From the NCBI GenBank assembly GCA_964016885.1, contig OZ024742.1:261888001-261952000 (forward strand): a stretch of DNA of 64,000 nt. The letters are read 5' to 3'. Below, piece by piece: positions 36,201-39,200 of the stretch; position 1 is the stretch's first letter; each line of letters begins with the position of its first letter. Below the pieces are notes generated by a model. That model searched no databases, was not told where the DNA came from, and was given only the letters and a program-made list of their open reading frames with translations. Source of the DNA: Eledone cirrhosa (Eukaryota). A program made the position numbers and the translations under genes.

Positions 36201-39200
36201 CATCTATCTTGATAACAGAGCAGCCAACCACAGCAGGGTAAACTATGAGGTGTGGCGCATCTTCAGCTACTCGACAAAGCAGATCTGACACACTTTGACG
36301 GACATAGGATTCAGGGTGGCTGAGGCGAGAAAACAACTGTGGAATAATACCTGTAAAACAGGAGAAAAACAAGAACTGATCATGTTGATAATGATGATGG
36401 TTTACAGAGGAAAAAATACAGGAAGTAATGCTTTCATAATGTGTGTGTGTACACACAGACACATATATATATATATATATAATCATCAGCGTTTAATGTT
36501 TATTTTTCATGCTTGAATGAGAAAGAAAGGTTGTCATGTTATGAGACTAGTCAGGTCAGATGACCATGCCTTGCTCAAACTATATATATTTTTGGCTTGG
36601 TTTTTATGGCTGGATAGTGTTCCTAATGCCAACCACATTACAGTGTATGCATGTCAAAAAAGAAAAAAAAAAACAAATATATATATATATATATAATTGG
36701 ATATATGAGAGGGATGAACACAGATATAAGTATACATGTGTTCCAATTGCAAATGACCAAGTTAGCTAGGTTGAAAAATACTAATTTAAAACAATATGGT
36801 TTGCCCGACTCATTTTTATTGATTTATTACTTTAAATCAAGAAACCTATATCGGGCAATAGCCTTTGATACCCGGACAGATCTAAATCTGTTTCGCAAGA
36901 ATTATTAAGTGAAAGCCAGAATTCCTGTGCTCATCTGCGGGTATCCAGGAAAATTTGTACCTTTCACTTCAAAGGATCTAAGAAGACTGAACGATATGCT
37001 GATATAAACGCACATGTCGCAGCGCCTAGCACGTCTCATACTCATGCTGCTAAAAATAGCAGCTGGGTTTATGAGACTAAGGTTAGCTCTACATATGGAG
37101 CCGAGAATATCATAGATTGAGTTATAAACATCGGACTAGCCGGTCATTAAGATTGGTAATGACCGCCCCGTTCCGATCACGGATCGTCTCGCTGATACCC
37201 GTACTGCTTCGGCTGGCCCGCTTCCCCAGTTGGTAGAGCTTGCGCGAGTTACCACAGGCTGCTGCCCTCTCCGTCTGCTCCGCAAATTCGTGCCAGTGTG
37301 CATTCCGATCGGCCTGAATAGCCCGAGATGTGCGACGTCGTGCATTCCGATCGGCCTGAATAGCCCGAGATGTGCGACGTCGGAGATCTCGAAGATTGGG
37401 TGCACCCTCGAGTCGGGCCACTCTCGCTCTCTCCGCGAGTTCAAGAGTGCCGCCAGAGATCCAGTCCCGATGGCGTCTTTGGGTCGATCCGAGATGCTCT
37501 CTGGCCACCTCAACCGTCGCCGCCCTGAGCGCGTTCCACTCCTGCTCCGGTTGCTGTTCCACTTCGTTACTCAGCATTTGAAATCGGTTCCGCAGCTCTA
37601 GCCGGAAAGCATTTCCAGCATCGAGCTTGAGTCGCGAGATGTCAATCCTTTTCTGGCGGTTGGGAGGAGGTTTCGCCCGCAGCCGCAGACGAAGGGTTGC
37701 TCGAACAAGAGTATGGTCTGACCCATGCTCACTGCCCGTATCAGCCCCTCCATACGCACGCAAGTCCATCACTGAGCTGGCTCACCGAGATCTGACCAGG
37801 ATGTAGTCAATTTGATTGGCCGTTCTTCCGTCATTGGATCACCACGTGACGAGGTGACGCCGAGGATGTTGGAACCGGGTGTTGGTGACGACAAGATGAT
37901 TGGCATCCGCGAAGGACACGAGCCGTTCACCATTGTCACAGTGTACGCCTAGGGCGAAGCATCCTAGAATATGCCGTGTTGTATCATCAGCCGGCCCCGC
38001 CCGCGCATTCCAGTCCCCAGCGACAATGAGAACATCACTGGAAGGACGCCATCCACGGTTGTTTGGAGATCGGCATAGAACTGCGTCTTGTCCGCCTCGT
38101 CCACATTGAGTGTGGGAGCGTAGACAGCAATTACACTGACATTGGAGATTTGACCCTTCAATCAAACCAGTGCGAGTCGGTGTGAGATCGGCTGCCACGC
38201 CAGCAGAGCCGCTTGCGCGTCGGGGCTGAGCGCTACAGCGGCCCTGTGAAGGCCACTGTTGTCAGTCACGCCACTATGGTACAAGTGGTAGGAGATATCC
38301 TTGCCAGGAACTTTGATCGGAAGATAACCAACATCGGGAAGTCGAACTTCTGAAAGGCAAGCGACACTAACGCAGTACCTGTGCAGAGCCTTCATTGTAA
38401 GTGCCTGTACACCGTCGTCACGAAGTGTTCGGATTTTCCAGCACGCCACCCTCAATTCCTTCCTTCGTCTGAAGAGCGGAACTACTGCGAGAGTAGTCTG
38501 TAGAGCCATAGCGATACTCAGACAAACCTAAATCTGTTTCGCAAAAATTAATAAGTGAAAGCCAGAATTCCTGTGCTCATCTGCGGGTATCCATGAAAAT
38601 TCGTACCTTCCACTTCAAAGAATCTAAGAAGTCCGAACGATATACTGATATAAACGCACATGTCTCAGCGCCCAGTGCATCTCATACTCATGCCACAGAT
38701 GAGCACAGGAATTCTGGCTTTCAGTGAATAATTCTCGCGAAACAGATTTAGTTCTGTCCGGGTATCAAAGGCTATTGCCCAATATAGGTTTGTTATTTTT
38801 ATTGATTTATTACTTTAAATCGAGTCAGGTAAACCATATTGTTTTAAATTAGTATTTTTTCAACCTAGCTAACTTGGTCATTTGCAATTGGAGCACATGG
38901 ATACTTATATCTGTGTTCATCCCTCTCATATATCCAATTATATTACATGGCTCGGAAAGATTCCCTTCTTTGAGCTATTTAATTGTAAAAGACTATTTTG
39001 AGTTTATAACTCAATCTATGATATATATATATATATATTTACAGGTGAAGAGCAATATGATCAACTAAAAATTCCTTGGATAGGGTGCACTAGCATGGCC
39101 ACAGATGAATGATAAACCAGTAAAAGATGAAAAGCATAATCCATTCATGAAATTCAAGTTGATGTTTCTTATGAATGTATCTATGTGTGTGAGTGTGTGA

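What the first reader, a model, noticed from the sequence alone, without database searches (positions are those of the whole stretch)
38507..38591. Ribozyme cut site lies 11 nt upstream of the ATG that opens the RTE endonuclease ORF
Seen: GUC^TGAGTATCGCT-ATG GCT CTA CAG.. ([17 protein letters not shown], the APE N-terminus). This is where 5'-processing ribozymes sit in R2/RTE elements. Inference: this may be an RTE lineage whose 5' end is defined by a hammerhead, or a fusion that placed the captured APE at the start of the released RNA.
Basis: partly seen in the sequence, partly recalled or inferred. Interest (0 to 1): 0.7.

Follow-up and report, generated by a model that had tools for sequence, protein, structure and literature searches.

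The report
One-off hammerhead–LINE chimera in an intron
A broken middle piece of a common LINE jumping gene sits between two copies of an unrelated small repeat that carries a hammerhead (self-cutting RNA) motif, so the predicted cut site next to an ATG is a single local junction, likely accidental, and not a new jumping-gene design.

Summary
The letters are as reported (minus strand: GUC^, 11 nt, ATG at 38509), but the idea of a hammerhead-headed RTE lineage fails. None of 29 other copies of this LINE has the hammerhead upstream. 21 of them carry the family's own ~410-nt leader, and the reading frame usually opens 20 codons earlier. The junction was found only here. The hammerhead belongs to a ~493-nt, (TA)n-inserted, Penelope-like/retrozyme repeat. 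Here one inverted and two direct copies frame a 1.38-kb internal LINE fragment that lacks its 5' leader, RT and tail and carries two stops and a frameshift. This hammerhead copy is decayed: stem-I mismatch, U4A core, fold 12.5 kcal/mol above the minimum. The composite lies in an intron of an SMG1-like gene. The likely origin is two template jumps during Penelope-type reverse transcription (about 55%); LINE insertion followed by deletions is the main rival. Earlier notes of this scan report the same two-armed retrozyme build on other DNA of this genome. Low interest.

The parts
38513..38693 (-). Copy A of the hammerhead repeat unit (unit positions ~90-270), ending at the 3' arm of stem I
38513..38591 (-). 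Type I hammerhead motif, decayed (core CAGAUGA, stem-I C.A mismatch, two G.U wobbles); predicted cut between 38521 and 38520
38507..38509 (-). ATG 11 nt after the predicted cut; third in-frame Met of the LINE ORF
38503..38516 (-). 5' junction with imperfect microhomology between unit and LINE (3 of 4 letters just before the break; 8 of 10 just after it, allowing a 4-nt offset in the unit)
37131..38512 (-). Internal fragment (element positions ~410-1750 of ~3400) of an RTE-type LINE: endonuclease plus linker, without 5' leader, RT or tail; stops at 38164-38162 and 37841-37839, 1-nt deletion near 38045, private 42-nt tandem duplication 37298-37382; GC 57%
36690..37130 (-). Copy B of the repeat unit (positions ~9-447) with fully paired hammerhead stems and U4A core (predicted cut ~36875), ending at the family's '447' terminus in (TA)n
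38693..39024 (+). Copy C, inverted arm (unit positions 197-527), hammerhead truncated in the stem I 5' arm, ending at the family's '527' terminus in (TA)n
36675..36695 (.). Left (TA)n target tract
39021..39040 (.). Right (TA)n target tract
36351..39205 (-). 2855-nt GT-AG intron of an SMG1-like kinase gene that holds the whole composite; copies A, B and the LINE fragment are sense to the pre-mRNA
   Evidence: spliced contig joint; ends; flanking exon matches SMG1 chains at E 5e-17

Best explanation
This is a single-copy chimera: a disrupted 1.38-kb internal piece of an RTE-type LINE framed by one inverted and two direct copies of a non-coding hammerhead repeat, likely made when a Penelope-type reverse transcriptase jumped from the repeat RNA onto a LINE RNA and back during one insertion. 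Shown: the anatomy, the uniqueness of both junctions, the family's own leader and upstream Met, and the lesions. Inferred mechanism: a Penelope-type endonuclease/RT cut a (TA)n tract in the SMG1-like intron and primed from both ends. One arm started at unit position 527 (copy C). The other started at 447, copied back to about position 9, jumped to a LINE RNA, copied about 1340 nt, jumped back to uncut repeat RNA at about position 270 through imperfect microhomology, and joined the other arm at 38693. The ATG lies near the cut because the return jump landed in the GCTAT(T/G)G likeness just 3' of stem I, where this family also often carries small deletions. The junction is predicted to be non-functional.
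For: 0 of 29 other LINE copies have the hammerhead upstream and 21 of 29 have the family leader. Only the window itself spans either junction among 41 and 40 listed matches; the junction pattern has 1 match in the genome. 0 of 91 other repeat-unit loci (90 distinct places) contain LINE sequence within their 3-5 kb. Both outer ends are the family's standard termini in (TA)n: 40 of 57 pattern-picked loci have two opposed arms, 19 with one 447 and one 527 end. Two fixed RT start sites and AT-rich targets are shown in vitro for a Penelope element (PMC11167929, parts 1-2 of 4 read). [quoted passage not shown] No other part of the LINE lies in the 64-kb window. Ages overlap: LINE fragment 2.9% from the family majority, units B and C 4.6% and 3.6%. 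10 of 54 unit deletions of 3 nt or more start at positions 270-279 (7 distinct events).
Against: Copy A is 8.8% from the majority, against 3.6-4.6% for B and C (P about 0.01). A, B and C differ by 8-10% where compared and share only one non-majority letter, so they are not plainly copies of one RNA molecule. Internal deletions are common in this LINE family (4 of 13 copies with both ends are over 900 nt short), and later SINE-like insertions into units occur; both make the insertion-plus-deletion route plausible. No second case of foreign capture with loss of unit sequence was established among the 57 loci mapped (L168 was not resolved). The deletion cluster may be partly inherited within subfamilies. 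No autonomous parent element was found.
Confidence: 0.55

Rival explanations
1. A full-length LINE first inserted into an existing repeat array by its own machinery; two later DNA deletions removed its 5' leader and its RT/tail together with neighbouring unit sequence.
For: LINE copies often carry large internal deletions. Other units carry later inserted elements (L145, L147, L153, L191). Microhomology at the 5' junction fits end-joining as well. Copies A, B and C are not closely alike.
Against: It needs two independent deletions that each erase one LINE end. No tail, target-site duplication or other LINE remnant is left in the window. The LINE piece is not clearly younger than the units by much (2.9% vs 3.6-4.6%).
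Confidence: 0.27
2. The LINE piece was patched into a double-strand break in the array as a templated insertion (from LINE cDNA, RNA or another genomic copy) during repair, replacing about 230 nt of unit sequence.
For: An internal fragment without tail or target-site duplication, with short microhomologies at both ends, is what repair-templated insertions look like (established knowledge, recalled). The inverted arms nearby could be fragile.
Against: The standard two-armed build with both family termini already explains the locus as one event. There is no direct evidence of an earlier uninterrupted allele.
Confidence: 0.13
3. An RTE lineage whose 5' end is made by a hammerhead, or a selected hammerhead-APE fusion that is expressed.
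For: The spacing is as stated. RTE and R2 elements with 5' ribozymes exist: twister variants upstream of all 113 full-length Perere-3, HDV-like in R2 (PMC8501958 passages).
Against: 0 of 29 relatives have it and the junction is single-copy. The ORF stops after 115 codons, has a frameshift and lacks RT. The hammerhead fold is -4.9 against an MFE of -17.4 kcal/mol. The fusion keeps the unit's own 3' stem arm and points into the third Met.
Confidence: 0.02
4. The junction is an assembly artefact joining two repeats.
For: No listed contig bridges 38513.
Against: A contig at single-copy depth matches the private 42-nt duplication exactly (X1, 37298-37369) and another spans the A/C inversion joint (X2, 38578-38722). 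A spliced contig joins the exons on either side in the assembled order. These runs may come from the assembled individual, so they are not independent.
Confidence: 0.03

Closest known systems
Penelope pLTR-framed captured sequences in Adineta vaga (PMC3846280; passages read)
   Same: Cargo between two direct and one inverted terminal repeat, with no internal Penelope sequence.
   Different: There the best case is an intact intron-containing host gene with an 8-bp TSD. Here it is a disrupted LINE fragment, the left unit is truncated at the hammerhead, and a TSD cannot be read in (TA)n.
Metazoan non-LTR retrozymes / non-autonomous Penelope derivatives (PMC7229834 passages; bioRxiv 10.64898/2026.07.22.740005 part 1 of 5)
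   Same: Non-coding, AT-rich (36.5% GC) tandem-prone unit with a type I hammerhead.
   Different: The unit (~493 nt) is slightly above the 150-450 bp quoted. Most copies have A at core position 4 (71 of 79 exact pattern hits). Circular RNA was not tested.
RTE Perere-3 with 5' twister variant and R2 with 5' HDV-like ribozyme (PMC8501958 passages)
   Same: A ribozyme motif 5' of a non-LTR ORF.
   Different: There the ribozyme is in all full-length copies (113 of 113) and defines the element's 5' end. Here it is in 1 of 30 copies, replaces the true leader and belongs to another element.
Tripartite chimeric retrocopies made by double template jumps (PMC2104539; abstract only)
   Same: Three RNA-derived segments fused in one insertion, reported as a rare single case.
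   Different: Those are made by LINE machinery with a LINE 3' end and TSD. Here the outer ends are Penelope-like and the LINE is the passenger.

Membership tests
Non-LTR retrotransposon with a 5'-processing ribozyme (R2, Perere-3 type) | Ribozyme present at the 5' end of most full-length copies | tested here: not met
   0 of 29; hammerhead core scan 0 of 20 with a positive control; no Rfam ribozyme family on 5 LINE loci at E<=5
Non-LTR retrotransposon with a 5'-processing ribozyme (R2, Perere-3 type) | Cut site coincides with the element's 5' boundary | tested here: not met
   Family 5' boundary lies ~406 nt upstream of the ATG context
Non-LTR retrotransposon with a 5'-processing ribozyme (R2, Perere-3 type) | Downstream APE-RT ORF and 3' tail | tested here: not met
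   Stops, frameshift, no RT, no tail
Type I hammerhead ribozyme | Three stems around the core, open at stem I, NUH cut triplet | tested here: met
   All pairs form in copy B and L038; copy A has one stem-I mismatch. A sister subfamily shows two compensatory stem-I pairs and C3-G8 to U3-A8 (10 of 14 loci printed)
Type I hammerhead ribozyme | Canonical core CUGANGA | tested here: not met
   CAGAUGA in A, B and C; U4 kept in only 8 of 79 exact hits and 6 of 42 aligned motifs
Type I hammerhead ribozyme | Self-cleavage | not testable with these tools
   Needs an in vitro assay
Non-autonomous Penelope-like element / non-LTR retrozyme | Partial tandem plus inverted 5'-truncated arm, optional tail, microsatellite target | tested here: met
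   against the description in PMC8557442 (passages); the tail here is ~80 nt, not 30-40
Non-autonomous Penelope-like element / non-LTR retrozyme | Homology to the pLTR of an autonomous GIY-YIG/RT element | tested here: inconclusive
   3 of 30 GIY-YIG loci have unit relatives nearby, but as separate inserts beyond a (TA)n tract; only 30 of 150 scored matches were examined
Non-autonomous Penelope-like element / non-LTR retrozyme | Circular or unit-length RNA | not testable with these tools
   No RNA holder listed
RTE-clade LINE (source of the fragment) | Single APE-RT ORF, ~3.3 kb, short-repeat tail, TSD | tested here: met
   9 of 20 copies 3.1-3.4 kb, (TACAAG)n tail, TSDs visible in several; Pfam Exo_endo_phos and RVT_1
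RTE-clade LINE (source of the fragment) | RT phylogeny within the RTE clade | not tested
   The clade label follows from structure and recalled motifs; no tree was built

The most novel reading that the evidence does not exclude
Hammerhead retrozyme RNAs act as vectors: Penelope-type RT captures foreign RNA at a jump hotspot just 3' of hammerhead stem I, giving cargo flanked by two same-sense hammerheads. Here both U4A hammerheads would still cut and release a 1646-nt, possibly circular, LINE-derived RNA from the SMG1-like intron, beginning 11 nt before an AUG.
Probability: 0.05. Interest if true: 0.5.

Novelty: new member of a known kind. Interest (0 to 1): 0.13.

Why it matters
As found it matters little: it is one decayed chimera of two abundant repeats. 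It is a modest extra example that Penelope-type insertions can frame unrelated sequence. Two side points are testable. One is whether a hammerhead family that spread mostly with A at core position 4 still cuts. The other is whether such motifs are tolerated in sense orientation inside an intron of a conserved gene because they are slow.

Tried and rejected
Rfam, gathering and E-value modes: no ribozyme family on the window or on 10 loci. Unconstrained folding of copy A does not give the hammerhead (z -0.63). Ribozyme in the LINE's own leader: HDV-like descriptor 0 of 20 (home-made, no positive control), hammerhead core 0 of 20, no unusually stable fold (z -0.7 to +2.3 in 12 windows of 3 copies); a novel ribozyme there is not excluded. 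One core-like string 441 nt upstream in L024 lies outside the element. Pfam on the three window fragments: no hits. Autonomous parent of the repeat unit: not found among 30 GIY-YIG loci. ADAR-type hyper-editing as the cause of copy A's excess divergence: its differences, read by eye, are of mixed types with about 3 A-to-G, so rejected. Sequencing runs: no RNA holder listed; no contig bridges the junction, which is no evidence either way. Literature: 'hammerhead'+'U4A' 0 papers; 'hammerhead'+'RTE'+'cephalopod' 1 irrelevant paper; 'RTE, non-LTR, ribozyme, self-cleaving, hammerhead' 4 papers, none showing a hammerhead-headed RTE in listing or passages seen. Lünse et al. on Penelope hammerhead variants was not held, so U4A may be described there. 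Earlier-findings searches by sequence and by words returned nothing.

Full report
Observation. On the minus strand the window reads stem I (38591-38584), core CAGAUGA, a 9-pair stem II with a 2-nt bulge, GAAA, stem III, GUC, then 11 nt and ATG at 38509-38507. The peptide that follows is 90% identical over 115 residues to the endonuclease region of a full-length relative, which scores Pfam Exo_endo_phos and, further on, RVT_1. The spacing is therefore as reported. Rfam does not recognise the motif, probably because of the A at core position 4 and the long stem II loop (inference).

The LINE family has its own 5' end. A search of the genome with the first 313 nt of the fragment listed 40 matches; 30 were fetched, one of them the window. 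None of the other 29 has the hammerhead upstream. 21 of 29 carry one shared leader start 338-419 nt (mostly about 406 nt) upstream; the other 8 lack that motif within 700 nt. Twenty of those 21 were fetched at length. 13 of 20 show both ends, 9 of them 3.1-3.4 kb, with a (TACAAG)n tail and visible target-site duplications in several. A hammerhead-core scan of the 20 leaders found 0 on either strand, while it found copy B as control; a home-made HDV-like descriptor, without control, found 0. Rfam at E<=5 found no ribozyme family on 5 LINE loci. In the RTE element Perere-3, by contrast, all 113 full-length copies have the upstream twister variant (PMC8501958, passages).

The junction is single-copy. 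Of 41 listed matches to the 161-nt junction only the window spans it; the others stop at query position 85-89 from either side. The same holds for the 3' junction at 37131 (1 of 40). These searches score only the top 40 candidates, but a direct pattern for the junction also gave 1 match in the genome. None of 91 other repeat-unit loci (90 distinct places, 3-5 kb each) contains LINE sequence, and no other part of the LINE lies in the window.

The fragment is dead. It covers element positions ~410-1750, is 2.9% from the family majority (others 2.5-9.4%), has a 1-nt deletion near 38045 and a private 42-nt duplication, and has stops at 38164-38162 and 37841-37839. RT and tail are absent.

The hammerhead belongs to another element. 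It is one of three copies of a ~493-nt AT-rich unit: A (38693-38513, minus), B (37130-36690, minus) and C (38693-39024, plus). The unit is abundant: 2279 first-look candidates and 79 exact hits of a 27-nt pattern. In 57 pattern-picked loci 40 have two opposed arms, and of 96 outer 3' ends 39 fall at unit position 527 and 32 at 447; 19 loci have one of each, as here. This matches the partial-tandem, inverted-arm, tail and microsatellite-target description of Penelope-like elements (PMC8557442, passages) and the two RT start sites shown in vitro (PMC11167929, parts 1-2 of 4). Non-LTR retrozymes are proposed to be non-autonomous Penelope derivatives (bioRxiv 10.64898/2026.07.22.740005, part 1 of 5). 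I did not find the autonomous parent: 3 of 30 GIY-YIG loci have unit relatives close by, but as separate inserts beyond (TA)n. Earlier notes of this scan describe the same two-armed build for other hammerhead units of this genome; I tested the build here for this unit only.

Is it a hammerhead? By fold and covariation, yes. Copy B and a typical copy pair fully in all three stems (-18.3 and -18.6 kcal/mol, within 4 of the MFE). A sister subfamily has two compensatory pairs in stem I and the U3-A8 core covariation (10 of 14 loci printed; the other 4 were missed by the string search). U3-A8 is a known natural variant (PMC3088659 section 8; PMC4209133 passages). Most copies of this family have A at position 4 (71 of 79). 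The related U4C change lowers activity considerably in vitro (PMC3088659 passage); I found no paper on U4A. Copy A adds a stem-I mismatch and two wobbles and has lost the sequence beyond stem I; its hammerhead fold is -4.9 against an MFE of -17.4 kcal/mol. It is predicted to cut poorly or not at all. This was not tested.

Context. A contig of run X4 (kind not on record) joins 36347 to 39203 with intron-type ends; the intron is 39205-36351 on the minus strand, and the exon next to it matches SMG1 chains (E 5e-17). Copies A and B and the LINE piece are thus likely transcribed as sense intron RNA.

Mechanism. The outer ends are the family's two standard termini in (TA)n, and the arrangement of one inverted and two direct repeats around cargo is the one reported for Penelope-framed captures (PMC3846280, passages). 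I therefore favour a single insertion with two template jumps (0.55). The 5' junction keeps 8 nt past the cut site, so the template was uncut RNA if the route was RNA-based. It shows imperfect microhomology with the LINE around the ATG, which explains the ATG's closeness without selection. It also sits where 10 of 54 small deletions in the family begin (7 distinct events; some may be inherited). Against this reading, copy A is about twice as diverged as B and C, the three copies are not closely alike, large deletions are common in the LINE family, and no second capture was established. Insertion plus two deletions (0.27) and repair-templated patching (0.13) remain open. All three make the junction a one-off.

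Reality of the assembly. No listed contig bridges 38513. Single-copy-depth contigs match the private duplication and the A/C inversion joint; these runs may be from the assembled individual. Supplements of the papers cited were not read and might list further core variants.

Verdict. New member of a known kind; interest 0.13.

Noticed in passing
window 36351-39205 (minus); exons at about 36187-36350 and from 39206: The composite lies in an intron of an SMG1-like kinase gene, with two hammerhead motifs in sense orientation 1646 nt apart.
   Followed up: partly
family-wide: The repeat family spread mostly with core CAGA(A/U)GA (A at position 4; 71 of 79); a minority keeps CUGA. Whether U4A copies cut is unknown.
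   Followed up: partly
L099:170-320, L128-L141: An abundant sister subfamily (1841 first-look candidates) has a U3-A8 core, compensatory stem I and a roughly 75-nt stem III insert.
   Followed up: partly
L099, L117, L124: 3 of 30 GIY-YIG loci (one family with a CxxxxCxxC linker, Neptune-like by recall) have unit relatives in the (TA)n just past the element's 3' end; shared target or co-mobilisation. L117 near 2170-2210 has a minimal hammerhead-like string with a U3-A8 core, seen by eye.
   Followed up: no
unit positions 270-279 and 300-319: Small deletions cluster just 3' of hammerhead stem I and in a short palindromic stretch.
   Followed up: partly
L096 (=L030) 84-170; L081 1-344: LINE copies with an inverted piece next to their 5' end.
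   Followed up: no
L145, L147, L153, L191: SINE-like inserts of 186-371 nt inside hammerhead units, two of them at unit position 237.
   Followed up: no
window 34059-34283, 54597-54695, 5267-5503, 25436-25685: Minisatellite arrays (48-, 48-, 35- and 125-nt periods).
   Followed up: no
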